In this document: positions 10,066 to 54,873 of the stretch, in pieces
Layout: every line of letters begins with the position of its first letter
Numbering within the stretch: the first letter of the stretch is position 1
Assembly: GCA_016183065.1 (NCBI GenBank)
Contig: JACPFF010000026.1
Location: 4,476-68,475 of the forward strand
Direction of reading: 5' to 3'
From: Deltaproteobacteria bacterium
Lineage (GTDB): Bacteria; UBA10199; GCA-002796325; JACPFF01
DNA: 64,000 bases
Program-made: the position numbers and the translations under genes
Notes under the pieces: model-generated
Told to the model about the DNA's origin: nothing
Database searches by the model: none
The model's input: the letters and a program-made list of their open reading frames with translations, nothing else

Positions 10066-10124
10066 TTGGATAGAGCATCAGGCTTCGAACCTGAGGGTCG
10101 GGAGTTCGAATCTCTCCGGGCGCG
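10051..10124 (+). tRNA. tRNA-Arg (anticodon TCG)
   Basis: Manual cloverleaf: acceptor GCGCCCG/CGGGCGC, D-arm GCTC/GAGC, anticodon stem TCAGG/CCTGA with loop CTTCGAA, T-arm GGGAG-TTCGAAT-CTCTC, discriminator G. No encoded CCA. Confidence 0.9.
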
Positions 10125-38390: not shown

Positions 38391-39059
38391 TCAGTTGTCG
38401 ACCACGCCCTGCGCTGCGATGGCAAAGGCAGAGACAAAATTTCCGTGCGTGGCGGTACGATAATGGCATTCCCATGGTCCATAATGGGCCCGCCGATGGG
38501 GGTCATCCACACGGATATCGGTCAATCGTAGATTCGGGGTGGGTGGGAGCGCCTTGAGGCAGGCTTCCTTGATACACCAGAGTACCTTGCGGCGTGACGG
38601 CACGATGCGGTCATGTGGATGCCATATTCCATGTTGCATAGAGTGGAGTCTGTCGCGGCATTCAATGTCACAGCCGATACCAATACGACCGAGGTAACGC
38701 GCGTGCACATGCGCAATGACAGCAAAACACCATCCCGCTGCATGTGCCAGTGTGACGACAAATGGGCATCCCCTGTTGCGACAGCGCAACTGCGGATCGA
38801 AACTATGTCGGTGTCGTCGATTCGTGACTGACGATAATGCGTAGAGCGTCTGTGCGATCCACCATCGGCCAAATAACCGTTCAGCACGACGATCGGGATG
38901 GCGCTGCGTTTGAATATGTGCCCATTCGATGTCGTCAAAACAGGATCGATATGCCTCTTCCGGCATATGCAGCAGGATGGGACCTACATACACCTGTTTA
39001 ATGTGCAGCGGTGGTCGCATGTGCAAGAAATACTCTGTTGTGTGTAAGGCGCAGCCCAA
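38391..39059 (-). CDS. Sfp-type 4'-phosphopantetheinyl transferase
   Basis: VTLAHAAGWCFAVIA...RIGIGCDIE (G.D.E motif) and LWCIKEACLKAL (W.xKEA.xK motif). Start uncertain (39059 or 39020). Confidence 0.7.
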   Translation of the reverse strand: MGCALHTTEYFLHMRPPLHIKQVYVGPILLHMPEEAYRSCFDDIEWAHIQTQRHPDRRAERLFGRWWIAQTLYALSSVTNRRHRHSFDPQLRCRNRGCPFVVTLAHAAGWCFAVIAHVHARYLGRIGIGCDIECRDRLHSMQHGIWHPHDRIVPSRRKVLWCIKEACLKALPPTPNLRLTDIRVDDPHRRAHYGPWECHYRTATHGNFVSAFAIAAQGVVDN

Positions 39060-40272
39060 GATAGATTGGGATCATCATGACAATGGCCGCGTGCAGAAGA
39101 AATGAGGTGATCAGGAGGGGCATGGAGGCATGGTGTGCGGTGAGCTGTAAGAACCCGCGTGCCACGATCATGGCTGCTGCAAAGATGGCGGCGACCACAT
39201 ACCCTTTCTGATCTGACTCAAGAAGATATCGACTGACATGCATACCACCCATAAAGGGAATCAAGGCTGCGTCAGTCCAGATCACTATGGTCAGCGCGTG
39301 CACGGCGTCCTCGAGATGTGGCGTACACAGAGAGAGAATCTGCTCCACATGCGTGAACACGCGGTATGCGAGGAAGACCGTCATGCCGATCCAGAGGAAA
39401 AGTGCTGGCGATATCGGTCGAATGTGCGACCAGTGAAACATCGCATGGTCGTGTTGGCGGCGTTGCGCGAGAACTTGACCGAGGGCAAGTGCGGGAATGA
39501 GGAAGAATGGTTTGAGTTGAAACCAACCGGCAAACACCCCAACGTAGGCGGTATCCCACTGACCGACGATGCCATTGAGCCAATGACGGTCCAGTGCGAC
39601 GACAGACCAACTGAGGATCAGGGGAATCGAAAATCGACTATAGAGATGCAGAGAGTGTCCCTGCAGTGTGCAACGCCACAACGCGCGGTGCCAGGGTTGT
39701 AGCAACAGAAACCAGACGATGGATTCCAGGACTGCCACGTATGCCATCGTGTGCGCCCATGTCGAGGTGTCGAGCAGGTCGTGCAGTGCGCACCATATGG
39801 CCATGCCGATCGTGATGCACAGAAACGCGAAATTCGCACGATAGATACGACGAAATGCCCCACGCGCACGCAAAATACCAATACAGCCTGCTGAGGCAAT
39901 GCTGAGTGCCGCCATGATGAACAGCGGTCGAGCGATCAGGGTCATTTCAAATGTCGTGACACCCCCTGGTTGATACAGAAAACCACCAGCATAGTACATC
40001 AGTGCCAGGCTCGCTTGCCAGGCAAAGAGTGCCACGATGTTGGTCTGTGACTGTCGGCCGATCAGATAAAAGATCGCCATTTCCGTTCCCTCGGCAATGG
40101 CGAACCCCAGGAGGAGATAGGGGAGGAGCAGTCCGTAGACAATGATGGCACGGTCCGAGACTTGGGCAAAGACCAGACACATGACGAGCGGTGAGGCATA
40201 TGTGGCGGCAAATCCTTTTGTGCTATGCCATAATGTGCACAGCATCTCGTAATTGTGTTTCCACAGAGACAT
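38998..40272 (-). CDS. About 12-TM membrane protein, possibly a MOP/MATE-superfamily exporter
   Basis: Hydropathy pattern and N-terminal ATYASPLVMCLVFAQVSDRAIIVYG resemble MATE-like lobes. Weak. Confidence 0.35.
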   Translation of the reverse strand: MSLWKHNYEMLCTLWHSTKGFAATYASPLVMCLVFAQVSDRAIIVYGLLLPYLLLGFAIAEGTEMAIFYLIGRQSQTNIVALFAWQASLALMYYAGGFLYQPGGVTTFEMTLIARPLFIMAALSIASAGCIGILRARGAFRRIYRANFAFLCITIGMAIWCALHDLLDTSTWAHTMAYVAVLESIVWFLLLQPWHRALWRCTLQGHSLHLYSRFSIPLILSWSVVALDRHWLNGIVGQWDTAYVGVFAGWFQLKPFFLIPALALGQVLAQRRQHDHAMFHWSHIRPISPALFLWIGMTVFLAYRVFTHVEQILSLCTPHLEDAVHALTIVIWTDAALIPFMGGMHVSRYLLESDQKGYVVAAIFAAAMIVARGFLQLTAHHASMPLLITSFLLHAAIVMMIPIYLGLRLTHNRVFLAHATTAAH

Positions 40273-40273
40273 A

Positions 40274-41212
40274 TTATTGTAGCCGGCGGAGTGTCAGACC
40301 AATGATGACCTCGCCGGGTTCGATGAATAGACACAGACATCGTGTGTTATTTGGCATATCGCTCTTGGCAAGCATCGCCAGGATTTCCAATCCATGGGCC
40401 ATGCCACAGCAACCGTTGTGCCACGCCATACCGGTACGTACGTGCGAAAATTGTTCCAGCACGAGCGGAGCACACGCGGGATAAATGACCTGCGAGCATG
40501 TCGGTGGATGCTGGCGAAAAAAATGCGTCAGCTGTGTCATCGTGTCATCCAACATCATGTCCCATGCATGATCAGCCCAGGCGAACGGGTGTGGATGATA
40601 ATATGCGATACAATCTTCATACACATACGTCGGTCCTTCTGATGGAATATCTGTCGAGACAGATACCACCCCCGCAGCATCCGAAAGCCATCCCAGCGGC
40701 GAGAAGGCGCGATGCGCTGGCGCAAGGACCCGTTCAGCCCCCACAATGAGGCTCGTCGCAGAGGCCGATTGAGACTGGACCCAGTCAATGGTTTCCTGGA
40801 ATGCGAGGCCCCATGTGGCGCCTCCCTGGTATTCTACCGTAAATGTCTCCGATGCCCGAATACCGGTGATATGTTGCAACCATGCCGCAGGGCATATGTG
40901 CAAATCTTCCGGGAAGGTCTGATGGCAGTAGACAAATTGTTGGCAGGAAGCGTGTGGATAGGCCTTCAATACTGCGGCGGCCAGTTCGACCTGACTCAGG
41001 CGAGGGCTTTGCACAAATGCGTGAGACCGTCCCTCCCACGCCATCGGAGGGACATGGTGGCGAGGTAACAGTCCATGGGTACACAAATGCAAATAGTGTA
41101 ACGAATCAAAGGGATCTTCGCTATGACCTTCCAGATATTCTGCCCAGGATCTGAGGGATAATACCTCACCAACCGGTAGTACGGATGGTGTATGGATATA
41201 GACATCATGCAT
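40274..41212 (-). CDS. KASIII (FabH)-like thiolase-fold protein lacking the nucleophilic Cys
   Basis: TFTVEYQGGATWGLAFQETIDWVQS...SLIVGAERV and LSDAAGVVSVS parallel FabH A-A-C-S-G-F...VVGAE and GDGAGA blocks, but the Cys position reads GGAT. Confidence 0.5.
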   Translation of the reverse strand: MHDVYIHTPSVLPVGEVLSLRSWAEYLEGHSEDPFDSLHYLHLCTHGLLPRHHVPPMAWEGRSHAFVQSPRLSQVELAAAVLKAYPHASCQQFVYCHQTFPEDLHICPAAWLQHITGIRASETFTVEYQGGATWGLAFQETIDWVQSQSASATSLIVGAERVLAPAHRAFSPLGWLSDAAGVVSVSTDIPSEGPTYVYEDCIAYYHPHPFAWADHAWDMMLDDTMTQLTHFFRQHPPTCSQVIYPACAPLVLEQFSHVRTGMAWHNGCCGMAHGLEILAMLAKSDMPNNTRCLCLFIEPGEVIIGLTLRRLQ

Positions 41213-42488
41213 ATCCGGTAACCAGCTGTTGGCCCTTTGCGAGAGTACGCCATGTCATTTGGGGACTGAGCATATGGATACAGCCGTTGCTGCCAGCCCA
41301 TTCTGCGGGAAAACCCTCAAGGGCGCGCCATACCGCGCTGGTCGTTGGTCCATAGGCTCCCGAGTTGAGAAAGACGAGGTAATCGCCGATGGCCAAACGA
41401 GGTGCTGTTACACGGGTGGGCCATGGAAGACGCTGTCCATGGAGACGGTACGAGACGGCAGTTGGCAGCTTTCCACGTTTCCAGCCGTCACGATGCAGCC
41501 CGGCACCAAGAAAATGGCGATTCTTTGCGAGAAAACTTCCCGCGGATAATCCGTGAAGGGCTGGTGTCGCCGCGACTTCCACCTGTTGCAGGTCGCCGTC
41601 CATTGCGACGTGTTGCACGCGTGCAAAAAAACACCCCGCCGGACCGATAATATAACGGCCTGACTCCAGGTAAAACAGGCAGGGCGGGAGTCCGGTCGCG
41701 TGATAGGCGCGGACATGTTCCTGTACTGCCTCGGCGAATGATTCAAATGCGCACTCATGCTCGTCTTCGTAGTAGGGAATGCCGAGACCTCCCCCGACGT
41801 CAACTTTGGTGCATATGGCGCCTGTCTGACCAAACTGACGCGCCTGCGCGATGACCTGTCCTACGTTCCATGCTGCATCCGTTGCGGAGGCAATCCGAGT
41901 CCCCACATAGATATGGATGCCACAGACCTGGAGAGGAGATTGTCGATGGATGGCATCGTGCATGCAGTGAAGGGCCTCATCGCGTTCGAGACCAAATTGT
42001 GTGGTGCGACCCCCCATCGCCATGCGAACGCCCCGAACCTCGTACGTAGGATTAATGCGCACGATGGCCGTTGTCGGACATCGACGCGTGGTGGCAATAT
42101 GCCGCAACATGTGGAGCTCGGACGCGGATTCCACGGCAACCGCGCCGATCTGGCGCTCGACCGCTAGAGTGAGCTCCGCACTGCTCTTTCCGGGGCCGAC
42201 AAAACAGATGGTTTCCGATGCAAATCCACTGCGCAACGCCAGTAATAACTCTGCACCAGAGGAGACATCGGCCCCACACCGTTCCTGCGCCAGCAATGTG
42301 AGGAGCGGCGGCGCTGGATTCGCCTTGAGTGAATAGAGCAGATGCATATTCTCTGGCAGTGCGCTCTGCATCGTGCGCACACGTGATCGTACGATGTCCA
42401 TATCATAATAATAGCCTGCCGTCAGCTCAGCGGTGACACATGCCGTGTAGAGTGCTCGTCCATTGTGATGTGCGTCGCACAGATGCAT
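41205..42488 (-). CDS. PLP-dependent fold-type III decarboxylase (Orn/DAP/Arg decarboxylase family), PLP-Lys present
   Basis: LLYSLKANP, GIHIYVGTRI, VDVGGGLGIPY, ESGRYIIGPAG and GDYLVFLNSGAYG. Start chosen at MHLCDAHH (ATG 42488, GGAGGA 9 nt upstream). The GPxCxxxD loop is absent. Confidence 0.75.
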   Translation of the reverse strand: MHLCDAHHNGRALYTACVTAELTAGYYYDMDIVRSRVRTMQSALPENMHLLYSLKANPAPPLLTLLAQERCGADVSSGAELLLALRSGFASETICFVGPGKSSAELTLAVERQIGAVAVESASELHMLRHIATTRRCPTTAIVRINPTYEVRGVRMAMGGRTTQFGLERDEALHCMHDAIHRQSPLQVCGIHIYVGTRIASATDAAWNVGQVIAQARQFGQTGAICTKVDVGGGLGIPYYEDEHECAFESFAEAVQEHVRAYHATGLPPCLFYLESGRYIIGPAGCFFARVQHVAMDGDLQQVEVAATPALHGLSAGSFLAKNRHFLGAGLHRDGWKRGKLPTAVSYRLHGQRLPWPTRVTAPRLAIGDYLVFLNSGAYGPTTSAVWRALEGFPAEWAGSNGCIHMLSPQMTWRTLAKGQQLVTGYA

Positions 42489-42516
42489 TGTCGACATTCC
42501 TCCATTGTCATGAGTG

Positions 42517-43455
42517 CTACTGCGCTTGTACGAGGAGACCGCCCCAACTTGCTCCCATGCCATAGGTCAGTGCGAGGGCGTAGGTCGATGTCGGTGGATG
42601 CTGCGCAACGAATTGCATCAACCCCAGCACGCAATCCGTTCCAAAAAGATGCCCCAAGGTCTCCATCTCCCGCTGCAGTAGGATCTGGCCGTGAAATTGC
42701 AAAAGCTCTCGGATACGCTGCCATGTCACCGGATTGCTGATATGGGGAATCACATGTGCAACCTGCTCAATGGTGATCCCATGCCGGACTAAGAGCGCAT
42801 GAACGAGCGAACGGAGGGTGAAAAAATATCGCCAGCTGAGTTCATCGCCAGCTCCACTCATGTCATATCGCGATGCATCGGTGATCACGTGCGTTCCCAC
42901 ATACGCGATTTCCGCGGGGGCATGGCTCAGAATCACCGCTGACGCCGCATCGCCCTGGATCACGCCGTTGCCCAATGTGCGGTGCGTCGTAAAATCCACA
43001 ACGTCGACCGTGGCCACCAACACGTGAGAATATGGCCGTGTCGTCAACCAGTGCGCAGCCTGTCGCATGGCAGCAATAGTGCCTGAACACTGATGTCCGC
43101 CGAGATGCAGGTATGGTCCCGAAACGCCAATGGGCTGCAATATGGATCGAACAAGAGAGCGTCCAGCGGGGAAGTGCGTCATCGGCAATGTGCAACAAAA
43201 TACGGTGCCATCAATTATTGTCGCCGGCATCGATGCCCGTTCGAGCGCACCCGTAATGGCCTCACGCAGCAATGACATCTTTGCATCGGCCGACCATGCT
43301 GCCAGACATGCGACGGTGCGATCATGACCTGCTGTTTCTTGCGTTGCAGAGATGCCCTCTATACGCATGATCGCACGACGCAACCGTCGCACCGTCCCCG
43401 TGACGCTATAGGCACCATGTACATAAATCCGACGTTGACGCTTCTGCTGATTCAT
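42517..43455 (-). CDS. KASIII-like condensing enzyme/acyltransferase (Cys present)
   Basis: Start MNQQKRQRRIYV in ATGA overlap with the upstream stop. GGHQCSGTIAAMRQAAHWL (Cys box), GDAASAVIL, HVIPHISN, GHLFGTDCVLGL. Confidence 0.6.
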   Translation of the reverse strand: MNQQKRQRRIYVHGAYSVTGTVRRLRRAIMRIEGISATQETAGHDRTVACLAAWSADAKMSLLREAITGALERASMPATIIDGTVFCCTLPMTHFPAGRSLVRSILQPIGVSGPYLHLGGHQCSGTIAAMRQAAHWLTTRPYSHVLVATVDVVDFTTHRTLGNGVIQGDAASAVILSHAPAEIAYVGTHVITDASRYDMSGAGDELSWRYFFTLRSLVHALLVRHGITIEQVAHVIPHISNPVTWQRIRELLQFHGQILLQREMETLGHLFGTDCVLGLMQFVAQHPPTSTYALALTYGMGASWGGLLVQAQ

Positions 43456-44429
43456 GGATCCACGGGATCTGCTGAGAGAAATGGCGAGGGAACCTGCTGG
43501 ACCGGAACAAGGGAGCCATGCGTATAGAGCATCTCGAGCGGCGCGGGATGGCTGATAAAATACAACGGGCTTCGATAGTGCGCACTGCCGGCATTCGGCA
43601 GTGCGATCAGATCGCCTGGGTGAAGTGCAGGAGCGGGTATATCGACCGCCAACAGATCTTGCGGCGTACACAGCGGTCCACAGAACGTGGTTGGACGCAC
43701 TGTCGCCTCTGCTGCACTGTACGGGAAGAGTATCGGGTACTTCTTGCGCAACGCATTTCCCCGTTGTCCGGCATCCCAGAGCACGTTTGTTCCACCACTC
43801 ATGATTGCATACTGACGTCCGTGGACCTGCTTCACCGTGCGTACCACCAGCCACAAGGTACAGGCCTGATGCAGCAGTGCTTCTCCATGGAACACCATGC
43901 AGCGAATGTCATGATGTTCGCAGAACTGTTGTATGCAATGTGACAGAGCATCATGGTCCTGGATTGATGCCCCCCGCGCATCAACAAGCCATTGTTTAGG
44001 GCGTTGTGCGATAGACCGCAGGGGTGCGCATTGAATGAGCTTCGGCAGGACATGATGGGGAATACAGGCGATCGAGTGAGAGGCTGGACAGGATGCCAGT
44101 GCCAGCCGTGTCCAGTCTTCTGGGGATTCGATCCACAGAGCATGCTCATTCAGACAGCACACGTCAGATGGCGGAATATTCGTCAACTGAAGATAGGAGA
44201 TCCACGCTGTTGTCGGAATGACGACATGGCAGCACAGCTGTTCGTGAATCCGTCGCACAACGGCAAGGGTTGGCTCTGTTTGGAGGTCGTACACATGCCG
44301 TATCCATGGGGGATATTGCTGCCCCACTGTGCGGCAGTTTGCCTCCAATTGTGGGATGTCAACAACGACAAACGCCTCCTGGCCGCGTCGTACCCACTGC
44401 GTCAGTTGCTCTAGGTAGGGAAACTGCAT
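43452..44429 (-). CDS. Degenerate fold-type III decarboxylase paralogue (PLP-Lys replaced by Gln, Cys loop retained)
   Basis: HVYDLQTEPTLAVVRRI aligns to LLYSLKANPAPPLLTLL. FHGEALLHQACTLWLVVRTVKQVHGRQYAIMSGGTN aligns to the EPGR region. FCGPLCTPQDLL and GDLIALPNAGSAHY are retained. Confidence 0.6.
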   Translation of the reverse strand: MQFPYLEQLTQWVRRGQEAFVVVDIPQLEANCRTVGQQYPPWIRHVYDLQTEPTLAVVRRIHEQLCCHVVIPTTAWISYLQLTNIPPSDVCCLNEHALWIESPEDWTRLALASCPASHSIACIPHHVLPKLIQCAPLRSIAQRPKQWLVDARGASIQDHDALSHCIQQFCEHHDIRCMVFHGEALLHQACTLWLVVRTVKQVHGRQYAIMSGGTNVLWDAGQRGNALRKKYPILFPYSAAEATVRPTTFCGPLCTPQDLLAVDIPAPALHPGDLIALPNAGSAHYRSPLYFISHPAPLEMLYTHGSLVPVQQVPSPFLSADPVDP

Positions 44430-44457
44430 GGCGGTTATGCGTACACGGTATCAGACT

Positions 44458-45828
44458 TCACCCTTGTGCTGGACAAAGGGGTGAGGAGAGCACGTCCGAA
44501 GTGAAAAATGTATGTATACGTTGTGCGAGCATCTGCTGCAGTATGAGGCAACGGTCGCGAGTCGAGGCGAACACGGCGTACATAAGACGCGATCTGGCGG
44601 GGATCTCCCGTAGTCGACTGACCGTGGCCCAATTCATGATCATGAGCCCTTCATCGGTGCGATAGGGGAGTGCTTTGACGACACGGTCATGAAACTCGGA
44701 GAACGTTGGACGATGCTGCAATGTAAACATCACCTGGTTTGATAAGAGACATAGACCGTGATGTCGCGCCTGATCCAGGGCCCATTGAAAGGACGAGTTG
44801 TTGAGTCGTGCGTTAATTTCCAGCAATGGATACACGGTTCCATTCTGAGCCACTAGCCCATCAACCCCAACAAGGCCCGTATAGCGGGCCGAGGCGAGTG
44901 CCGCTCCGATGACGTCGGCCGCATGACGGCACGTTGCCTCAATGTGCGCATCGGGCATCGCTGGCGTAAAATGACCGAGATGTTTACATCCCTCGACCAG
45001 GGCCTCTTTGTAGAGATAATAACTGACACGACCGGACGGGTGGAGAAAGAACTGATAGTTGAGGTCGTGGCGCTTTTCAATAAAGGTTTCAACAATCATT
45101 GTGCATGAATTGATGCTTCGGCGCTGGAGATATTCCAGATAATGCTCGAGTTCGGCTGTGGACGCGCACATGCGAATGCCGCGTCCACTGACTCCCATTG
45201 GATCTTTGAGCAACACCTTTCCATGTGTCTCTTGAAGCAACCGTGTGGCAATGTCATACAGCGCTGCCGGCGAATTGGCGATCAGCGAAGGGACGGTATG
45301 CGGCAATCCCGTCAGGCGGGAGGAAAAACACTTATCATTGACGCGATGGGTCACGTCAGAGGATGCACTGATATTTGGGATGCCCGTGTCTTGCACCAGT
45401 TGATCGGCTGCGATCGTGGCGCCATAAAAGAAGAAACGGAGACGATTGCGCAGCGGATGGGCAGCAAGGGCTGCAAGAGTCGGCGGATCACGGCAGATCA
45501 GCTCGCAGATGTCCAACGTTGGATCGTCGTGTTGCACGATCAGCATGCGACAACGCGCCAATCCGTACTCCTGCAGATATGCAAGGAACTGTGAATCCGG
45601 CGCGCGACGCAAAATCACGATATCCTGTGGGCGTGCCAACAGGAGAACCAATTCCTCCATTGCGGCAATCACCTGGCGCTCCGTTCGCGGCGCGACGGAG
45701 GGCCCCATAATGTTCAGTGGATTTTTTCGTGGCCAGTGACGTTCCACTTCACATTCGATGGCCCAAATAACGGGATGGGGACCGATCCAGTGGAGCAGTG
45801 GAAGTGCTATCGGAGAAAAGTGGAGCAT
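44458..45828 (-). CDS. ATP-grasp ligase
   Basis: KVLLKDPMGVSGRGIRMCAS, MIVETFIEKRHDLNYQFF and VYPLLEINARLNNSS are ATP-grasp nucleotide-binding and Mg blocks. Start at 45828 (GGAAAGGAAAG upstream); alternatives are 45921 and 45708. Confidence 0.65.
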   Translation of the reverse strand: MLHFSPIALPLLHWIGPHPVIWAIECEVERHWPRKNPLNIMGPSVAPRTERQVIAAMEELVLLLARPQDIVILRRAPDSQFLAYLQEYGLARCRMLIVQHDDPTLDICELICRDPPTLAALAAHPLRNRLRFFFYGATIAADQLVQDTGIPNISASSDVTHRVNDKCFSSRLTGLPHTVPSLIANSPAALYDIATRLLQETHGKVLLKDPMGVSGRGIRMCASTAELEHYLEYLQRRSINSCTMIVETFIEKRHDLNYQFFLHPSGRVSYYLYKEALVEGCKHLGHFTPAMPDAHIEATCRHAADVIGAALASARYTGLVGVDGLVAQNGTVYPLLEINARLNNSSFQWALDQARHHGLCLLSNQVMFTLQHRPTFSEFHDRVVKALPYRTDEGLMIMNWATVSRLREIPARSRLMYAVFASTRDRCLILQQMLAQRIHTFFTSDVLSSPLCPAQG

Positions 45829-46348
45829 CGCTTTCCTTTCCGGCATCTTGTTCGAATGCGGTCCATGCGCGCCGCAGATAGCGGCGTAAGACAAAGGCAT
45901 ATTTACTGATATCAACACCATACAATCGGACGTGATATTGTTGATATGACGTGTCCGCGGCGATCCGGAACACTACGGAGGGGATGATCTCGCAGGTCTC
46001 AGGGTTCAGTCGCCGGAGGTTGAGCCAACTCATAAGCTCACCGGCCGGACCATCGAGATGGAGGAGAACCCAGAGCGGAACCGTTTCTCGAAGGACCAGT
46101 CGCATTTCTCCATGTATCTGCAGCATCGCGCCGGAAAGGCCATAATGTACATGTGGTGCGCGGATGTACACGAACTGGTCAGGCCGTGCAGTAGTGGAAA
46201 AGACCTCGGGACGAAGCACTCCGGCATTACCGCAGTGACGGTAGAACATCGCCGCGATATGCTGTCCCCCAGTGACAGTCAGTGGTGCCCATCGCCGTGA
46301 CATGCGTATGAACGCATATGGTGCCAGGTGTTGTGTGTGGCGCCTCAT
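45749..46348 (-). CDS. Hypothetical protein (199 aa) inside the biosynthetic operon
   Basis: ATGA coupling with the ACP stop supports translation. No recognised motif. The 3' end overlaps the ATP-grasp ORF. Confidence 0.4.
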   Translation of the reverse strand: MRRHTQHLAPYAFIRMSRRWAPLTVTGGQHIAAMFYRHCGNAGVLRPEVFSTTARPDQFVYIRAPHVHYGLSGAMLQIHGEMRLVLRETVPLWVLLHLDGPAGELMSWLNLRRLNPETCEIIPSVVFRIAADTSYQQYHVRLYGVDISKYAFVLRRYLRRAWTAFEQDAGKESDAPLFSDSTSTAPLDRSPSRYLGHRM

Positions 46349-46629
46349 GCCGCACCAGCCTCTTGTTGTTGCGGTACTGTTAAGAGCTTTTGCACAAGCA
46401 GAGATACCAAGGCGCTGAGGCGCTCGAAGAGTTCTGGTGAGAGTTCGTCATCATCAAAAACAACGTGTAACTGGTTTTCAATGTCAACGATCAATTCCAT
46501 TACCCCGAGTGAGTCGAGCCCGATCTCAAAGAGGTTCGTCTCCAGCGAAAGCGAATGGTCTGTTGCACTGAGTTTGACGATCCGCGTGATCATGGGGTTC
46601 AGAATCGTCATGATCTGTTGCTCATTCAT
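46345..46629 (-). CDS. Stand-alone acyl/peptidyl carrier protein
   Basis: 94 aa. LFEIGLDSLGVMELIVDIE contains the DSL phosphopantetheine attachment motif. Confidence 0.85.
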   Translation of the reverse strand: MNEQQIMTILNPMITRIVKLSATDHSLSLETNLFEIGLDSLGVMELIVDIENQLHVVFDDDELSPELFERLSALVSLLVQKLLTVPQQQEAGAA

Positions 46630-47644
46630 GGTGCGTGCCTTTCTCGTGTCCGTAGTGCATCGGACGTGTCGGGGTGAAAATCATTGTGCAGAGAGTCGTT
46701 CCGAGGCCCGTTGCATGCAGTGCCACCGGCTTCTTTGCGCCTCGTCGCAAAACTTCCATCAGGCATCCAATGGCGATATGTGCAGATGTCAGTGCGTATT
46801 CCCGAACGTGGTCGTCAATAATAGTCCGCTTTGTCCGGGGATACGATGTCAGTCGGTCCATGGCCCGGTTCAATGGGGGATTGTTTGTCACAATGAATTC
46901 CATATCGTCGGCGGTGAAGCCCGTCTGAGTGAAGGCCCGTTCATATTCGTGGAGTGACCATTGCACACCCTTTACGGCCAGTGTGCGCAGCGTTTCCAAT
47001 GGTTCGCGATACCGTCGGCCGCCCTGGGGAATGCAGCGTGAGGCCACGTAGTGAATGGGGCCACCCTCGCGACTCAGGAGGACGGCGCTCCCAGCATCTC
47101 CAAAGATCAGATGGTTGACCACCCGTGGTTCACCACAATGCGTTGCCACGCAGTCTCCACCAGCCACGATGACCCGATGGATGTCGGGACGGGCGGACAT
47201 CACATACCACGCGGCTTCAATCGCGGCGATGCTGGACGCACAATTACGCTGAGTGACATGTGCGACGTAGCGCAGATCCATCATGCCTGTCAGTTCAGCA
47301 AGGCGCGATGGCATATTGATCGTAGTATCCTCGGGCCATGGAATGGCATCATAATAGAGCAAGGCATCGACGGCCGCGGGTGGCAGCGCATTGTTGGCAA
47401 GCAATTGCTCAACGGCCATCACGGCCAGATCCAGTGGGCGCTCGCTGCTCGCGATAGGGACAGAGGCGTACCCTGCGGCGCGATACGATGCGGGATCGAG
47501 CGAGGGGGTTGAGACATGATCATAGTTGGTGTCGAGACGCGTTCCCGCTGCAATGCGGGCCCGTTCGACGGCAATGACCTGTTCAACAGTGTAGCGTTTT
47601 GGTGCGGGGACGTACACGCAATCCTGGATGCCGATAGCGGCCAT
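46622..47644 (-). CDS. KASIII-like condensing enzyme/acyltransferase (Cys present, atypical His/Asn positions)
   Basis: Start MAAIGIQDCVYV with GAAAGGAGGA RBS. TQRNCASSIAAIEAAWYVM Cys box, IVAGGDCV, FGDAGSAVLL. Confidence 0.6.
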   Translation of the reverse strand: MAAIGIQDCVYVPAPKRYTVEQVIAVERARIAAGTRLDTNYDHVSTPSLDPASYRAAGYASVPIASSERPLDLAVMAVEQLLANNALPPAAVDALLYYDAIPWPEDTTINMPSRLAELTGMMDLRYVAHVTQRNCASSIAAIEAAWYVMSARPDIHRVIVAGGDCVATHCGEPRVVNHLIFGDAGSAVLLSREGGPIHYVASRCIPQGGRRYREPLETLRTLAVKGVQWSLHEYERAFTQTGFTADDMEFIVTNNPPLNRAMDRLTSYPRTKRTIIDDHVREYALTSAHIAIGCLMEVLRRGAKKPVALHATGLGTTLCTMIFTPTRPMHYGHEKGTHHE

Positions 47645-47675
47645 CGTTCCTCCTTTCGTGTGCAGAATGAAAATG

Positions 47676-48827
47676 TCAGATACGGAGATGCGTGCAGATA
47701 TGTTCGCGCTGCATCTCTCCTGTCCCTTCGAGAATATCAAAGACCTTGGCCGCCCGGTACAATCGTTCGAACAAGTGTCCTTCGACCAATGCCTCTGCGC
47801 CAATGATCTCGATGCCGCGAACGGCCATCCGCATGGCGAATTGTGCCGTGTATGCCTTTGCAATCGAGACGGCGTATTGGGCCGGGAGTCCGGTATCGTG
47901 GGCATGAGCGGCCCGTTGACAGAGCATCCGTCCTATGTGGATGTCACGTTCCACCTCCGGAAGTGTCTTGCCGTATTCGCTGCGCAATGTGTCGGCAATG
48001 GCACGCGCGATTCCCACGCTGATGGCCGAGACTTCGATGCGAAAAAAGCTCCACGCGGCCGTCGCACCATGGAATCCAGCCAGATAGGCCTTTCTGTCGG
48101 GGCCGCAGAGGAGTTGCGATTTGGGTACAAAGCACTCATCCAGGACGATTTCGGCAATGCCCGCCGCGCCAAGGCCCATCATTTTCTCGACGGTTCCAAT
48201 CGAAAATCCTGGGGCATCACGGTCGACAATGAAGGCACGCAATCCGAATTGTTTCCGGGATGCATCAATCGTCGCAAAGACAATCGTGTAATCCGCGCGG
48301 GCCCCATTGGTGATGAAGCACTTTGTCCCATTGAGGATGTATCCGCCGTCGACCTTGCGGGCGCGGGTCCGCAATGCTGTTGCATCGGATCCGGCATGGC
48401 TTTCGGTGATGGCAAATGCGCCCCATACATTGCGCTGTGTGCTGAACTTCCGAAAATAGCGCTCACGCTGCGCTTCGGATCCGAATGCGCAGAGCACCGG
48501 AAACGTCAGACTTGGGCCCGGCAACCCGCAGGTCAAACCGGGATCACCCCACGCGAGCTCCTCGGTCAGCAGAATACTGATCTGCGAGGAGCATTCAATC
48601 CGCCGGTCGCTGCCCGGAATCGGTACGCCCCCACCATACCTGCAGGGAACGTAGGCAGCGCTCAGAATGTCCGCCCAAGGATGTTCCAGGACTCGCGGGG
48701 GGATCTCTCCTGTGCGGTCTGCCACTGCTGCCGCAGGCCGGAGGTGCTCTCGCGCAAAACAGCGGGCTTCTTCACGCAACGCCGCGTGCTGTGCAGGTGT
48801 CAGTGTGGGTATTGGTGTCATTTGCAA
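47676..48827 (-). CDS. Acyl-CoA (or acyl-ACP) dehydrogenase, catalytic alpha-type subunit
   Basis: GAFAITESHAGSDATALRTRARKVDGGYILNGTKCFITNG and C-terminal FDILEGTGEMQR (catalytic-Glu region) are ACAD hallmarks. Confidence 0.8.
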   Translation of the reverse strand: MQMTPIPTLTPAQHAALREEARCFAREHLRPAAAVADRTGEIPPRVLEHPWADILSAAYVPCRYGGGVPIPGSDRRIECSSQISILLTEELAWGDPGLTCGLPGPSLTFPVLCAFGSEAQRERYFRKFSTQRNVWGAFAITESHAGSDATALRTRARKVDGGYILNGTKCFITNGARADYTIVFATIDASRKQFGLRAFIVDRDAPGFSIGTVEKMMGLGAAGIAEIVLDECFVPKSQLLCGPDRKAYLAGFHGATAAWSFFRIEVSAISVGIARAIADTLRSEYGKTLPEVERDIHIGRMLCQRAAHAHDTGLPAQYAVSIAKAYTAQFAMRMAVRGIEIIGAEALVEGHLFERLYRAAKVFDILEGTGEMQREHICTHLRI

Positions 48828-49755
48828 TGATGGCTCCGAGTTCTCGCAACATCGTTTTCAGCACCTGGGCATCACGCATCCATTTTTCGACAGGATGATC
48901 CTCGAGATAGCCATGACCACCCAAGACCTGTACTGCACCTTCAACAATGTCATCGAGCACAGTACAGAGCAGACATTGTGATTGCCATACCGCACCCGGT
49001 GTCTGCGGATGGTGCAACGCATGATCAAAACACGCTGTTGCCCGTTCATACCCAATGGCCATATTGGCGAGTTTCTGTGAGACGGCCTGCCACCGGACAA
49101 TGGCGCGTCCGAATGTCTGACGTTCATGGGCATAGGCATGTGCGTATTGAATCGTTGCACGCAGGAGACCGAATGTCACACATTGGTACAACAGACTGAT
49201 TTCGTCGAGGAAGCTTGCATAGTCGGATGTGGAGATATTTCCCAGCATCACACGCACCGGTGCGGATTGTGGCGCGAACCATGAAATGCCGCGAAATCCC
49301 ATATACTGGCGAGTGGCGGCCATGGTCGTACCTATCAAGAGGAGTTCGTGCCCACTGGCACTCGACCGAATCATATAGCTATCGGCTACCGGTACATTCA
49401 TCGCCATCACAAATGCGCACGGCTCATAGGGGAAAATCGGGGCCGTGACGAGCGGATGCGCTGCCCTCGACTGTAAGGCGCTGTGGATGAGTCCAGCAAA
49501 CAGACGGAGGGCGATGGCGGCGTCCCGCTGCCCGACGCACCCGATGATCTGTGCAAGGGCCGCTGCATCACAATATGGGTTGTGATAGAATCCCCCCGAG
49601 GCGATGTCGTGCAGGCCCAGTTCACTGGCCCGCGCGGCAATTGCTGACCACACGGCTGGATCTCGCTCCATGCGCCGTGACATGGGCGCCACGCATGTCG
49701 CGGCAAAGTCTTCAACCGGTGGCAACAACGCATTGGTCATTTCATTTGTGCACAT
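48772..49755 (-). CDS. Acyl-CoA dehydrogenase-like beta-type subunit (degenerate)
   Basis: YAHERQTFGRAIVRWQAVSQKLANM and VQVLGGHGYLEDHPVEKWMRDAQVL match ACAD C-terminal helices. The N-terminal and middle FAD/substrate blocks and the YEGT catalytic motif are not recognisable. Confidence 0.6.
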   Translation of the reverse strand: MCTNEMTNALLPPVEDFAATCVAPMSRRMERDPAVWSAIAARASELGLHDIASGGFYHNPYCDAAALAQIIGCVGQRDAAIALRLFAGLIHSALQSRAAHPLVTAPIFPYEPCAFVMAMNVPVADSYMIRSSASGHELLLIGTTMAATRQYMGFRGISWFAPQSAPVRVMLGNISTSDYASFLDEISLLYQCVTFGLLRATIQYAHAYAHERQTFGRAIVRWQAVSQKLANMAIGYERATACFDHALHHPQTPGAVWQSQCLLCTVLDDIVEGAVQVLGGHGYLEDHPVEKWMRDAQVLKTMLRELGAIIANDTNTHTDTCTARGVA

Positions 49756-49767
49756 GGCATTCGTCCC

Positions 49768-50769
49768 TTATTGGTGATATCGCAGACGCAAATCCGCCAA
49801 TCCGGTCACAGCGCGTACTTTGAATGGGGCCGCAGGGTTCGTGGCCACGTCAACGTGGACATCTGACAGGCCACTTTTGATGGTTGGGGCCACGACGGCC
49901 CCTTCGGGGAATTCAAGCGTGGAATCTGTGGCACCCGCACGAATGTCGACCTCTCCGGACGACGGCATCTGTATCCAGCGGAGAAACAATTCTCCCAGCC
50001 CTGTGCGGACCTCGACAGTTGACGAGCGGATCTCTCCCCAAAGGGTTCCCACGCCAACTTTTACTGCAAGTGGGCCTGCCAGGTTGGTGAGATGGAGTGT
50101 CCCTTTGCGCACTTCGGCAGTGATCGCAAGGCCCGAGGGGACCATGAGACCGACATCCACCTCGCAATCACCAGGATCCAGCACGGCCTTCTCGGTTTTG
50201 ACAACGATGCTATCTGCTTCCGTCGTCACTTCGGTTTGGCAGCTTGGACTGCTCTTGCGTGGGTAGGTGCGCAGCTCGATGGTGTCTGTCGCAATACCGG
50301 CGACATGTACCACGCCCACATCATGCCGCACAGTGAGGTGATCGACCTGCACTGCCGGAATCACCCGTGTGATATCGGGTGCCGTACTGGTGTCAAAGAC
50401 AAAAGCGGCATTTCGACCGGTTGTTTCTGCGACCTCTGTGGACATGTCGCGCTGTGTGCCGACGAATTGCGTAACGCTTGCGCGAAAAGATGCAACCGCT
50501 GCACGCACATTGTGCTCGACGGTGTGCGCCACACTGGTGGCAGTATTGCGTGCCGTCGCCCATATGGTTTGTTCATCCCAGCGGGAAGCCAATGCTCTGG
50601 TCCCGCCAAGCCATTGCATGGCCGTCTGTACCTCGTCGACCGCTTCAACCACATGGTCAACAAAAGATGCGGCGGTTTGTTGCACGCCAGATGTCACGTC
50701 AGCGATGAATCGCTCGATGTAACATGCGGGCACATTTGTACTGCTACTGCAGGTGCGTAGGTCTCCCAT
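49768..50769 (-). CDS. DUF4097-like beta-helical protein, no obvious signal peptide
   Basis: Repetitive V.V....G.L.G.I....V.V.TG.G strands (LAVKVGVGTLWGEIRSSTVEVRTGLGELFL) typical of the putative-adhesin DUF4097 fold. Confidence 0.5.
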   Translation of the reverse strand: MGDLRTCSSSTNVPACYIERFIADVTSGVQQTAASFVDHVVEAVDEVQTAMQWLGGTRALASRWDEQTIWATARNTATSVAHTVEHNVRAAVASFRASVTQFVGTQRDMSTEVAETTGRNAAFVFDTSTAPDITRVIPAVQVDHLTVRHDVGVVHVAGIATDTIELRTYPRKSSPSCQTEVTTEADSIVVKTEKAVLDPGDCEVDVGLMVPSGLAITAEVRKGTLHLTNLAGPLAVKVGVGTLWGEIRSSTVEVRTGLGELFLRWIQMPSSGEVDIRAGATDSTLEFPEGAVVAPTIKSGLSDVHVDVATNPAAPFKVRAVTGLADLRLRYHQ

Positions 50770-50852
50770 GAGACACCTCCTTTGGTGTTTGGTCAGGTAA
50801 GCAAGTGAATATCGCCATCAGTCAGCAATACGAACGATGCCGCGGAATGGTG

Positions 50853-51539
50853 TTATGATGACTGCGGATACTGCAGTGTGACGCTGCCAAAACCCACCTT
50901 GGCCTGCAGCAAAAACCCCGAGGTGCTACTGGTTTGTAATGCATTGATAATGCGACCAAAACCTTGCACGAGGTCCGGTCGGATGGTCGTGCCGCGGGGA
51001 AAGGTCAATGTTACGACCCCAGCGCCCGCCTTGATGGCGAGAATTCCGCGCTGTGGCACGTGGCCCCAGACAAGGTCGACGTGGCCCGCGCCCAGCTTGA
51101 TGTGGGTGTCCTCCGAATCGATGGTGCCTCGGACATGGCCCGCACCCATGTTAATATGCAATGGCCCCCGGAGATGCGCGAGCTGCACCCTGCTTGCTCC
51201 ACTGTCGGCACGCACCGCCAGTGTGCGCGGCATCGTGACCACAAGATCCACCTCACAGCTCAGGCCGGAAAAGAGGGCATGTGCGGTTTTCACGAGCACG
51301 GTGTCTCCTTCCGTGCGCACTTTTGTCAGACAGCTGAGTCCGCCTTTGACCTTCTCTGCCCGCACGTGAATCGTCTCTGTTTCCATTCCTTCGATCCGCA
51401 CCGTCCCTTCCTCGTGCTTGATCCATACGGTTGTCACGCCTGCCTGCGGAACGGTGTGATCCAGCAACACCTCACCGGCACGCGCAAGACTGCTCCACGA
51501 CAGAGCGCTGATCATGATTGTGACCATCAAGTAGAGCAT
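50853..51539 (-). CDS. DUF4097-like beta-helical protein with signal peptide
   Basis: Start MLYLMVTIMISALSWSSLARA with GGAGG RBS. Same strand-repeat pattern (LHINMGAGHVRGTIDSEDTHIKLGAGHVDL). Confidence 0.5.
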   Translation of the reverse strand: MLYLMVTIMISALSWSSLARAGEVLLDHTVPQAGVTTVWIKHEEGTVRIEGMETETIHVRAEKVKGGLSCLTKVRTEGDTVLVKTAHALFSGLSCEVDLVVTMPRTLAVRADSGASRVQLAHLRGPLHINMGAGHVRGTIDSEDTHIKLGAGHVDLVWGHVPQRGILAIKAGAGVVTLTFPRGTTIRPDLVQGFGRIINALQTSSTSGFLLQAKVGFGSVTLQYPQSS

Positions 51540-51571
51540 ATATACCTCCTCAGTATGCGTACGGCTGCGTC

Positions 51572-51823
51572 CTAAAACGGAACCTCGTTCATCCACTGCA
51601 TGGCACAGTGCCACCATCCATTATCGGCCACCACAGGCCAGCCGTCAGTGACCGCCTTCATTGCCTGCGCAACATGACCAATGAGCAGTGCCAATGCAAC
51701 CACGAAAGTCAGGCCAGGGACAAGGAAGATCACAAGGTTGATCAGGAGCACGATAAGGATCAACAACATCACGAATAAGCTGATGAATGCCAGGGTTGTC
51801 ATCAGGACCTCCATGACGGTCAT
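51572..51823 (-). CDS. Small 2-TM membrane protein
   Basis: LAFISLFVMLLILIVLLINLVIFLVPGLTFVVALALLIGHV. The start is one of several Met codons around the MATE stop. Confidence 0.4.
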   Translation of the reverse strand: MTVMEVLMTTLAFISLFVMLLILIVLLINLVIFLVPGLTFVVALALLIGHVAQAMKAVTDGWPVVADNGWWHCAMQWMNEVPF

Positions 51824-54122: not shown

Positions 54123-54136
54123 TGTCGGCAGTTTCC

Positions 54137-54700: not shown

Positions 54701-54818
54701 ATGTACGACATCCATAGACCTTAGAGTGCGGCCGGGGTTTTTTCTGGATGTGCCATTCGTGCCGTGGTTGCCGTAACAAACGCAGACATGTCGTGACGCA
54801 ATTCTGATGTTTTGGATT

Positions 54819-54834
54819 AGCAAGCACCGTGCCA
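54819..54834 (-). promoter_or_regulatory. Sigma-54 (-24/-12) promoter
   Basis: Minus strand reads TGGCACGGTGCTTGCT, which equals the consensus TGGCAC-N5-TTGCW. It lies 119 nt upstream of the NusG-like ATG and 40 nt after the preceding stop. Confidence 0.75.
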
Positions 54835-54873
54835 AAAAAGATTGACGAGAAAACGCGGTGAAATGCTTGTTTG

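What the first reader, a model, noticed from the sequence alone, without database searches (positions are those of the whole stretch)
41205..44429. Two decarboxylase paralogues with complementary defects, predicting an obligate heterodimer with one composite active site
Paralogue A (41205-42488) keeps the PLP-binding Lys (LLYSLKANP), HIYVG, GGGLGIPY and ESGRY blocks. At the position of the GPxCxxxD substrate/catalytic loop it reads YRLHGQRLPWPTRV, with no Cys. Paralogue B (43452-44429) has Gln in place of the Lys (HVYDLQTEP) and FHGE in place of EPGR, but it retains FCGPLCTPQDLL. In ornithine/DAP-type decarboxylases each active site is built across the dimer interface, from the PLP-Lys barrel of one subunit and the Cys loop of the other. 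An A-B heterodimer would therefore have exactly one intact site (Lys from A, Cys loop from B) and one dead site. This resembles enzyme-prozyme pairs.
Basis: partly seen in the sequence, partly recalled or inferred. Interest (0 to 1): 0.7.

Follow-up and report, generated by a model that had tools for sequence, protein, structure and literature searches.

The report
Two-gene split PLP decarboxylase pair
Two neighbouring genes each keep the half of a shared decarboxylase active site that the other has lost, so they most likely work only as a mixed pair with one working site; no natural case of this was found for this enzyme fold in the searches run.

Summary
A (41205-42488, minus strand, 427 aa) and B (43452-44429, minus strand, 325 aa) are both BtrK-like fold-type III PLP decarboxylase homologues.

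- **A** keeps the PLP lysine, the GGG loop, E-x-GR and SGAYG. It has replaced the GPLCTPxD cysteine loop.
- **B** has no PLP lysine and has lost about 100 residues of the barrel, including the GGG loop. It keeps an invariant FCGPLCTPQD loop.

Of 55 positions conserved in 101 canonical relatives, A keeps 40 and B keeps 15. Only 6 are shared, 9 are B-only, and 49 are kept by at least one of the two (Fisher p=0.002). A and B show no detectable similarity to each other.

The order B, KASIII-like gene, A recurs in every related metagenomic locus long enough to show it. Both genes are under purifying selection (dN/dS 0.16-0.20). A sister cluster has one intact decarboxylase in their place.

The surrounding genes (ATP-grasp ligase, ACP, PPTase) match the butirosin and closthioamide logic of decarboxylating Asp/Glu-S-ACP.

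Best reading, about 0.7: an obligate A-B heterodimer with one composite active site and one dead site. I rate this a new variant of a known kind.

The parts
41205..42488 (-). Gene A, 427 aa. BtrK-like fold-type III PLP decarboxylase subunit with an intact PLP-binding barrel and a degenerate trans (Cys-loop) half.
   Evidence: Pfam PF02784 only. PDB best hit BtrK, E=1e-42, full length. AF2 pLDDT 92.8; Foldseek top hit 7ru7, TM 0.81.
42315..42335 (-). A: YSLK55ANP, the PLP Schiff-base lysine motif.
   Evidence: K is invariant in 8/8 A-types and in 101 canonical enzymes.
41772..41795 (-). A: G232GGLGIPY, the PLP phosphate-binding glycine loop.
   Evidence: Invariant in the A family; deleted in B.
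41652..41666 (-). A: E275-S-G-R278-Y, equivalent to ODC Glu274/Arg277 (ODC numbering from memory).
   Evidence: Invariant in the A family; replaced in B.
41418..41450 (-). A: Y347RLHGQRLPWP, the replacement of the GPLCTPxD catalytic loop. It has no Cys. The family motif is Y-[RKF]-[LV]-[HN]-G-x-[RK]-x-x-W-P.
   Evidence: Aligned to BtrK GPLCTPED. G343, P344, C346 and D350 are all lost in 8/8 A-types.
41346..41363 (-). A: SGAY379GP. This is the ODC Tyr389 equivalent, a C-terminal-region residue that serves the same subunit's PLP site.
   Evidence: G-A-Y-G is kept in 8/8 A-types and lost in the B family. TyrA389/PheB397 chain assignment from PMC11912471.
43452..44429 (-). Gene B, 325 aa. Lys-less paralogue with a truncated barrel that retains the beta-sheet domain and the catalytic Cys loop.
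   Evidence: Pfam PF00278 only. PDB best hit BtrK, E=3e-18, residues 179-308 only. AF2 pLDDT 88.8; Foldseek top hits BtrK.
44271..44291 (-). B: YDLQ50TEP, the vestige of the SLKANP motif. The PLP lysine is replaced by Gln.
   Evidence: This column reads Q/S/A/S/C/R/R/S/S/D/D in 11 B-types and never K.
43656..43685 (-). B: FCGPLC254TPQD258, the retained catalytic Cys loop, proposed to act in trans in A's PLP site.
   Evidence: G, P, C and D are invariant in 11/11 B-types and 96-100% conserved in canonical enzymes.
43545..43559 (-). B: F291ISHP, equivalent to canonical FL(S/G)H. By position in the C-terminal motif this probably corresponds to ODC Phe397, a trans-subunit residue; that mapping is inference from memory of the ODC sequence.
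   Evidence: F is invariant in B and lost in all A-types.
42517..43455 (-). KASIII-like protein, 312 aa, lying between B and A. Its start overlaps B's stop codon (ATGA).
   Evidence: Pfam ACP_syn_III hits. Junction sequence. This position is conserved in all related loci.
44458..45708 (-). ATP-grasp ligase, 416 aa, with a Pre-ATP-grasp domain. Proposed to load Asp/Glu onto the ACP, like BtrJ and CtaD.
   Evidence: Pfam PF18604. Gene call of 416 aa. 34% identical to the ATP-grasp of sister cluster L054. Precedent in PMC7183216.
46345..46629 (-). Stand-alone acyl carrier protein, 94 aa.
   Evidence: Pfam PP-binding, E=2e-9.
38391..39059 (-). Phosphopantetheinyl transferase-like protein at the end of the operon.
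   Evidence: Pfam ACPS, E=3e-7. Conserved in L006.
38391..54943 (-). The whole co-directional operon-like cluster. Gene order: LoaP-type antiterminator, alpha/beta hydrolase, MatE, two unknowns, short ACAD, ACAD, KASIII-like, ACP, unknown, ATP-grasp, B, KASIII-like, A, unknown, membrane protein, PPTase.
   Evidence: Same gene order in L005/L006.

Best explanation
A and B are the two subunits of one heterodimeric, carrier-protein-dependent PLP decarboxylase of the BtrK/CtaF/VinO type.

Inferred pathway: the cluster's ATP-grasp ligase attaches the side-chain carboxylate of an acidic amino acid to the phosphopantetheine arm of the stand-alone ACP. In this window the amino acid is probably Asp or Glu. 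In relatives that carry glutamate mutase it is probably 3-methylaspartate.

Inferred catalysis: A binds PLP through Lys55, with His192, Gly232-234, Glu275, Arg278 and Tyr379, and forms the external aldimine with the aminoacyl-S-ACP. After CO2 loss, the intermediate is protonated at C-alpha by Cys254 of B. B's GPLCTPQD loop reaches into A's barrel across the head-to-tail dimer interface, as Cys360' does in ornithine decarboxylase.

The reciprocal site would be built from B's barrel remnant and A's Y347RLHGQRLPWP loop. It has no lysine, no phosphate loop and no cysteine, so it is dead. Each heterodimer therefore has one active site.

Shown here: the sequence anatomy, its complementarity, its conservation and synteny, purifying selection, and the fold. 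Inferred: heterodimer formation, the role of Cys254, the substrate, and that A alone is inactive.

Probable origin: duplication of a canonical BtrK-like gene, followed by complementary loss of the two halves of the shared active site.
For: Family and fold. A hits only the barrel domain and B only the C-terminal domain. Both have BtrK as best sequence match and best structural match, with confident AF2 models.

Complementarity. Of 55 signature columns in 101 canonical enzymes, 34 are kept only in A, 9 only in B, 6 in both and 6 in neither. That leaves 49 of 55 kept in at least one (Fisher OR 0.12, p=0.0018). Every 100%-invariant canonical position except P18 is kept in exactly one of the two. 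In the C-terminal region A keeps only G-A-Y-G, while B keeps K289, G302, G343, P344, C346, D350 and F384 (BtrK numbering). A and B give no significant BLASTP match to each other (best E=0.26).

Conservation. The Cys loop holds 8 of the 22 invariant residues of the B family.

Synteny. ATP-grasp, B, KASIII-like, (GlmE/S), A recurs in the window contigs, L005, L006, L007, L008-L011, L051 and the ERZ1426827 contig pair. Adjacent genes overlap.

Selection. dN/dS is 0.20 for B and 0.16 for A, against 0.125-0.20 for neighbours. B's barrel remnant (0.19) and A's degenerate C-domain (0.13) are also constrained.

Sister cluster. L054/L055 has KASIII-like, ATP-grasp, one intact decarboxylase, ACP, ACAD and PPTase. 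That enzyme matches A at 35% over 409 aa and B at 38% over 118 aa.

Literature. Shared Lys69/Cys360' sites, with Cys360 ensuring correct protonation (PMC3253432). K57A + C334A ODC mixing restores 29% of activity (PMC3289617). Thiotemplated ATP-grasp plus decarboxylase pairs CtaD/CtaF and BtrJ/BtrK (PMC7183216; PMC11350588).
Against: No direct evidence of A-B contact exists.

The genes are not adjacent; a KASIII-like gene always sits between them.

The DGG loop (ODC Asp332 region) is, as I recall, a same-subunit element. It is lost in A and kept as SGG in B, which the simple cis/trans model does not explain.

A's replacement loop is itself conserved, with an invariant Tyr347. It is conserved even where the partner B has lost almost the whole barrel (L007, P0174), so it has some function of its own and could supply an alternative proton donor.

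Three A-types have Gln at the PLP-stacking His.

The cis/trans assignment of residues other than Lys69, Cys360, Tyr389 and Phe397 rests on my memory of ODC structures.
Confidence: 0.7

Rival explanations
1. A is self-sufficient as an A-A homodimer. It uses another proton donor, for example the invariant Tyr347 of its replacement loop, or it carries out altered chemistry such as decarboxylation-dependent transamination. B is then a non-catalytic accessory, such as an ACP-docking or scaffolding subunit.
For: A has a complete PLP site. Its replacement loop is conserved in 8/8 A-types, with an invariant Tyr at the position of canonical G343. That loop stays conserved where B has lost nearly all of its barrel. 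PDB entry titles for Cys-to-Ser variants of a related decarboxylase show PMP and aldehyde, so a Cys-less enzyme can still turn over with different chemistry.
Against: This reading does not explain why a mere scaffold would keep the catalytic GPLCTPxD loop, and the Phe384 and K289 equivalents, invariant across 11 proteins down to 22% identity under purifying selection. It also does not explain why B retains 9 of the 15 signature positions A has lost. The sister cluster manages with one canonical enzyme.
Confidence: 0.15
2. B works with a partner other than A, for example the KASIII-like protein or the ATP-grasp ligase encoded next to it. Its conserved cysteine would then serve a PLP-independent role such as acyl transfer or ACP handling.
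For: B is flanked by the ATP-grasp gene and the KASIII-like gene, and its stop overlaps the KASIII-like start. This adjacency is conserved.
Against: B's conserved residues are the canonical decarboxylase trans-site residues in their canonical spacing. B folds as a fold-type III decarboxylase. No precedent for such a role turned up in the literature searches.
Confidence: 0.08
3. B is a decaying remnant of a duplicated decarboxylase gene with no function. The complementarity is coincidental.
For: B has lost about 100 residues of the barrel and all PLP-binding residues. Some orthologues are shorter still.
Against: dN/dS is 0.20 overall, 0.19 in the barrel remnant and 0.21 in the C-domain. The reading frame is intact in at least 11 divergent lineages, with invariant motifs. 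The AF2 fold is confident. Retention in A and B is significantly anticorrelated.
Confidence: 0.03

Closest known systems
BtrK (butirosin), CtaF (closthioamide), VinO/FlvO (macrolactams): carrier-protein-dependent fold-type III PLP decarboxylases
   Same: Best sequence and structural match for both A and B. The genetic logic is the same: an ATP-grasp or adenylating loader, a stand-alone ACP/PCP, and a decarboxylase acting on Asp/Glu/3-MeAsp-S-carrier protein (PMC7183216, PMC11350588, PMC11284099). Relatives of the window cluster carry glutamate mutase, as vicenistatin does.
   Different: The known enzymes are single polypeptides that carry both the PLP lysine and the Cys loop (BtrK alignments; single-gene CtaF). 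Here the two halves lie on two separate, mutually unalignable proteins, one of which has a truncated barrel.
Engineered ODC heterodimers: K69A x C360A in mammalian/T. brucei ODC, K57A x C334A in E. histolytica ODC
   Same: The same complementary defects, a lysine-less subunit and a cysteine-less subunit. One restored composite site per heterodimer gives partial activity (PMC3289617; PMC3253432).
   Different: Those are laboratory point mutants that also form dead homodimers. Here the arrangement is natural, encoded by two diverged genes, conserved in several lineages, and accompanied by large deletions in B and a new conserved loop in A.
Trypanosomatid prozymes: AdoMetDC/prozyme, deoxyhypusine synthase DHSc/DHSp, PRMT1 ENZ/PRO
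   Same: A catalytically dead paralogue is required as a partner of an impaired paralogue. For DHS the complex pairs a catalytically impaired subunit with an inactive one (PMC3663545, PMC5201418).
   Different: Different folds and cofactors, and eukaryotic parasites. The AdoMetDC prozyme acts allosterically rather than by donating a catalytic residue. In the model here the 'dead' subunit supplies the catalytic acid itself.
Antizyme inhibitor (AZIN1), an inactive ODC paralogue
   Same: A fold-type III decarboxylase paralogue without decarboxylase activity (PDB 4zgz and 3btn appear as weak hits).
   Different: From my own knowledge, not tested here: AZIN does not complement ODC catalytically and acts by sequestering antizyme. 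B appears built to complement A.

Membership tests
Fold-type III (group IV) Orn/DAP/Arg-type PLP decarboxylases | N-terminal beta/alpha-barrel domain (Pfam PF02784) | tested here: met
   A: E=7e-39, above the Pfam cutoff. B: no Pfam hit to this domain. Its AF2 model shows a reduced beta/alpha remnant and aligns to BtrK with TMq 0.68-0.72. So the feature is met by A and only vestigial in B.
Fold-type III (group IV) Orn/DAP/Arg-type PLP decarboxylases | C-terminal beta-sheet domain (Pfam PF00278) | tested here: met
   B: E=1.7e-10, above the Pfam cutoff. A: no Pfam hit, but the AF2 model folds the region into beta strands and Foldseek aligns the full length to BtrK, TM 0.81.
Fold-type III (group IV) Orn/DAP/Arg-type PLP decarboxylases | Schiff-base lysine plus the GGG phosphate loop and E-x-GR in one chain | tested here: met
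   Met by A (K55, G232-234, E275, R278). Not met by B (Q50, GGG deleted, F-H-G-E).
Fold-type III (group IV) Orn/DAP/Arg-type PLP decarboxylases | Catalytic Cys loop (GPxC...D) in the same polypeptide as the lysine | tested here: not met
   A has Y-R-L-H-G-Q-R-L at that position, and 8/8 A-types lack Cys. B has the loop but no lysine. Neither protein alone is a complete member. Together they carry 49 of 55 signature positions.
BtrK/CtaF-type carrier-protein-dependent decarboxylases | Closest homology to BtrK, and a genomic link to an ATP-grasp loader and a stand-alone carrier protein | tested here: met
   BtrK is the top PDB hit by sequence and by fold for both proteins. The ATP-grasp and ACP genes lie in the same operon.
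BtrK/CtaF-type carrier-protein-dependent decarboxylases | Decarboxylates aminoacyl-S-carrier protein and not the free amino acid | not testable with these tools
   Needs an enzyme assay.
LysA (TIGR01048) and exosortase-A-associated decarboxylase (TIGR03099) equivalogs | Score above the NCBIfam curated cutoff | tested here: not met
   A: 178.9 against a cutoff of 297.9, and 211.2 against 478.45. B: 36.3 and 60.5. Neither is LysA, and neither is the PEP-CTERM-associated enzyme.
Enzyme-prozyme pairs (a functional category) | One paralogue lacks catalytic or cofactor residues, and the two are co-inherited | tested here: met
   B lacks all PLP-binding residues. The pair co-occurs in all informative loci.
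Enzyme-prozyme pairs (a functional category) | Physical heteromer whose activity greatly exceeds that of either subunit alone | not testable with these tools
Biochemistry is required.

The most novel reading that the evidence does not exclude
This is a natural, obligate heterodimeric fold-type III PLP decarboxylase. It arose by duplication and reciprocal loss of the two halves of a shared inter-subunit active site. Subunit A binds PLP; truncated subunit B binds no cofactor and exists to donate the catalytic cysteine loop in trans. The enzyme has exactly one active site and operates on an ACP-tethered amino acid in an uncharacterised ATP-grasp/KASIII-like biosynthetic pathway of uncultured bacteria.
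Probability: 0.65. Interest if true: 0.72.

Novelty: new variant of a known kind. Interest (0 to 1): 0.62.

Why it matters
Fold-type III decarboxylases such as ODC, DAP decarboxylase and BtrK are textbook obligate homodimers with two shared active sites. The classic proof of this was to complement Lys and Cys point mutants in the laboratory.

A conserved natural pair that has fixed that same complementation in two genes would be the first heteromeric member of this fold that I could find in the library searched. It would also be a bacterial analogue of the trypanosomatid prozyme principle. And it would be a clean example of complementary degeneration locking a homodimer into an obligate heterodimer.

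There are practical consequences:
- Annotation pipelines call such genes 'diaminopimelate decarboxylase'; relatives carry that name in public sources.
- Expressing A alone would probably give an inactive or self-inactivating enzyme.
- The pair marks a small, uncharacterised family of thiotemplated ATP-grasp gene clusters. These probably make a beta-alanine/GABA- or 3-aminoisobutyrate-derived product.

Tried and rejected
- **Complex modelling.** I built a paired alignment of A-(GGGGS)8-B fusions. The tools return no coordinates, so I could not measure a Lys-Cys distance.
- **Word-indexed searches.** These found only one full-length B orthologue, and the profile version found few more. The exhaustive HMM search was needed to find the family.
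- **Genome scan.** The scan of 185,579 species genomes found a single B-type locus, a 'delta proteobacterium' MAG. The other 38 loci were canonical enzymes.
- **Cluster-member look-up.** It gave no names or taxonomy.
- **PDB sequence searches.** Nothing was found for the conserved unknown proteins x312 and x199.
- **Rfam and promoter/terminator scans.** Nothing relevant turned up in the operon.
- **Literature.** Four searches for a natural heteromeric fold-type III or PLP decarboxylase-pseudoenzyme pair found none. A search for 3-methylaspartate with ATP-grasp and carrier protein found nothing.
- **Rejected readings.** B as a pseudogene (dN/dS, conservation). A or B as LysA or as a TIGR03099 equivalog (below cutoff). 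A hidden Lys in B or a hidden Cys loop in A (three independent alignments agree).

Full report
**1. What is there**

All genes between about 54943 and 38391 lie on the minus strand and are tightly packed. In order they are:
- a LoaP-type NusG antiterminator (54137-54943)
- an alpha/beta hydrolase and a MatE exporter
- two unknown proteins
- a short ACAD-like protein (48772-49755) and a full ACAD (47676-48827)
- a KASIII-like protein (46622-47644)
- an ACP (46345-46629)
- an unknown 199-aa protein
- an ATP-grasp ligase with a Pre-ATP-grasp domain (44458-45708)
- B (43452-44429)
- a second KASIII-like protein (42517-43455)
- A (41205-42488)
- an unknown 312-aa protein and a 424-aa membrane protein
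- a PPTase-like protein (38391-39059)

B's stop overlaps the KASIII-like start (ATGA), and A's stop overlaps the next start. The window matches metagenome-assembled contigs from four sequencing runs, in all of which B is nucleotide-identical.

**2. Checking the observation**

A matches only the barrel domain (PF02784, E=7e-39). B matches only the C-terminal domain (PF00278, E=1.7e-10). Against NCBIfam TIGR03099, A covers profile positions 24-292 and B covers 276-397. Both score far below the equivalog cutoffs, as they do for LysA.

BtrK is the best solved-structure match for both proteins. A aligns over its full length (E=1e-42). B aligns only over residues 179-308 (E=3e-18). In the A-BtrK alignment, BtrK's IAGPLCTPEDCLG is opposite A's VSYRLHGQRLPWP.

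- B has Gln50 at the Schiff-base lysine position.
- B has F-H-G-E where canonical enzymes have E-x-G-R.
- B has lost the GPGK, HxYxGT and GGG segments altogether.

No other lysine in B can take over. Window B has no Lys at all in about its first 120 residues. The only family-invariant Lys is K200, which corresponds to BtrK K289, and canonical enzymes conserve that residue as well.

**3. Is the complementarity real?**

I defined 55 signature columns as those at least 85% conserved in 101 canonical BtrK-like enzymes. I then scored 8 A-type and 11 B-type proteins at those columns.

| Retained in | Columns |
|---|---|
| A only | 34 |
| B only | 9 |
| Both | 6 |
| Neither | 6 |

A keeps 40 in total, B keeps 15, and 49 of 55 are kept in at least one of the two. 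Retention is anticorrelated (Fisher OR 0.12, p=0.0018). The B-only set, in BtrK numbering, is K289, G302, G343, P344, C346, D350 and F384, plus G364 and D365.

The split is not simply 'A keeps the N-domain, B keeps the C-domain'. Inside the C-terminal region A retains exactly G373-A374-Y375-G376. That tyrosine is the ODC Tyr389 equivalent. A human ODC study places TyrA389 and PheB397 in different chains of one site (PMC11912471), and B is the partner that keeps the Phe (F384). So the partition follows the two halves of a shared active site.

A and B have no significant pairwise similarity (best BLASTP E=0.26). Yet a canonical enzyme, P0060, matches A at 35% over 409 residues and B at 38% over 118 residues.

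**4. Relatives**

A-type proteins (barrel domain only) form a small group, P0052-P0058, at 41-100% identity.

An exhaustive HMM search of 1.84 billion representatives with a B profile gave six hits below 1e-30. These were 148-328 aa, one of them a fragment of window B itself. After them the scores fell abruptly to canonical enzymes. Three more distant B-like proteins (P0177, P0178, P0180) have TGPLCTP(S/A)D and no lysine.

Wherever a contig is long enough, the order is ATP-grasp, B, KASIII-like, (glutamate mutase E and S), A, about 300 aa, about 415-aa membrane protein, PPTase:
- L005
- L006, NCBI GCA_041643055.1
- L007
- L008-L011, for the distant B-like group
- L051, where the contig starts with a B C-terminus (...TTFCGPLCTPQD...FIGHP...) followed by KASIII-like and A
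- two contigs of one MAG, labelled 'uncultured delta proteobacterium', that carry B (P0171) and A (P0055) at their ends

In two lineages B is only 241-250 aa, having lost nearly all of its barrel remnant but not the Cys loop.

**5. Selection and fold**

Between L005 and L006 (dS about 0.5), dN/dS is 0.20 for B and 0.16 for A, within the 0.125-0.20 range of neighbouring genes. The degenerate halves are constrained too:

| Region | dN/dS |
|---|---|
| B barrel remnant | 0.19 |
| B C-domain | 0.21 |
| A barrel | 0.18 |
| A C-domain | 0.13 |

AF2 monomer models are confident. Both retrieve BtrK as the top PDB fold match, and all of the listed matches are fold-type III decarboxylases.

| Protein | mean pLDDT | pTM |
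|---|---|---|
| A | 92.8 | 0.91 |
| B | 88.8 | 0.87 |

**6. Sister cluster**

The canonical relative P0060 has both the lysine and the Cys loop. It sits in the order KASIII-like, ATP-grasp, decarboxylase, ACP, 298 aa, 227 aa, ACAD, PPTase, radical SAM. Its ATP-grasp, ACP, ACAD and KASIII-like proteins are homologous to those of the window. One intact gene there occupies the role taken here by two complementary genes.

**7. Mechanism**

The following is established knowledge. In this fold, two active sites form at the dimer interface. [quoted passage not shown] The interface itself is made mainly by the C-terminal domains (PMC3253432). Mixing Lys-less and Cys-less ODC mutants restores about 29% of activity through heterodimers with one good site (PMC3289617).

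BtrJ/BtrI/BtrK and CtaD/CtaE/CtaF show that ATP-grasp ligases load Glu or Asp onto a carrier protein and that the decarboxylase acts only on the tethered substrate (PMC7183216; PMC11350588). Vicenistatin shows the same logic for 3-methylaspartate made by glutamate mutase (PMC11284099).

My inference is an A-B heterodimer:
- PLP sits on A Lys55.
- B Cys254 acts in trans as the C-alpha proton donor.
- The reciprocal site is dead.
- The substrate is Asp- or Glu-S-ACP in the window, and 3-MeAsp-S-ACP in relatives that carry GlmE/GlmS.

**8. What does not fit neatly**

- The DGG loop is lost in A (A-A/T-T-P) and kept as SGG in B. As I recall, the ODC equivalent, Asp332, belongs to the lysine subunit.
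- A's replacement loop, Y-[RKF]-[LV]-[HN]-G-x-[RK]-x-x-W-P, is conserved in all eight A-types. This holds even where the partner B has almost no barrel left, so its role is unexplained. Its invariant Tyr is a conceivable alternative proton donor.
- Three A-types have Gln at the PLP-stacking His position.
- A KASIII-like gene always separates B from A.

**9. Rivals**

- A alone is sufficient and B is an accessory protein: about 0.15.
- B partners with another protein: about 0.08.
- B is a relic: about 0.03. Selection and conservation effectively refute this one.

The strongest argument against all three is that B's most conserved segment is the catalytic loop, which is useless without someone else's PLP site.

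**10. Novelty**

The principle is known from engineered ODC heterodimers and from trypanosomatid prozymes. Four literature searches found no natural heteromeric member of this fold. That library is incomplete, so this is absence of evidence only. I rate the finding a new variant of a known kind. The family is rare and is known here only from metagenomes and MAGs.

Noticed in passing
window 48772-49755 (-) and 47676-48827 (-): This may be a second 'half-and-half' pair in the same operon. A 327-aa protein matches only the C-terminal ACAD domain, with a weak NCBIfam hit to IpdE2. The next gene is a full 383-aa acyl-CoA dehydrogenase. The pair is conserved in L005, L006 and L012. It resembles the alpha2beta2 heteromeric ACADs of mycobacterial steroid catabolism (that resemblance is from memory).
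   Followed up: partly
window 54137-54943 (-): A LoaP-type NusG-family antiterminator (NCBIfam NF033641, E=2e-26, below cutoff) sits at the head of the co-directional cluster. This suggests processive antitermination of the long operon.
   Followed up: no
L005 11819-13696; L006 8179-10008; L007 4513-6365; L009 2023-3503: Related clusters carry glutamate mutase E and S subunits between the KASIII-like gene and A. This implies a 3-methylaspartate substrate, as in vicenistatin. The window cluster has no mutase there, so it probably uses Asp or Glu.
   Followed up: partly
window 45749-46348, 40274-41212, 38998-40272, 49768-50769 (all -): Four proteins have no Pfam, NCBIfam or PDB sequence match: 199 aa, 312 aa, a 424-aa membrane protein and 333 aa. 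For three of them (312 aa, 424 aa and the KASIII-like neighbours), homologues were confirmed in L006 at 28-34% identity.
   Followed up: partly
L007 2843-3595; P0174: In two lineages the B-type protein is only 241-250 aa. Nearly the whole barrel remnant is deleted, while the N-terminal strand region and the Cys-loop domain remain.
   Followed up: partly
L005 13689-14951; L006 10001-11263; L007 6334-7608: These A-type proteins have Gln instead of the PLP-stacking His (GIQAYVGT or GIQCYVGT, against GIHIYVGT in the window).
   Followed up: no
L054 1875-10547; L055 5667-12329: A sister cluster has a single canonical decarboxylase directly after the ATP-grasp gene. It also carries a radical SAM enzyme and an adjacent amidase. 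It is a useful natural control for the two-gene arrangement.
   Followed up: partly
window 46622-47644, 42517-43455 (-): Two KASIII-like proteins retain a cysteine in a FabH-like position (NCASS and HQCSG). Together with the ACADs this points to further processing of the ACP-bound amine, but the product is unknown.
   Followed up: no
window 10051-10124 (+): A single tRNA gene is the only Rfam match in the window.
   Followed up: no
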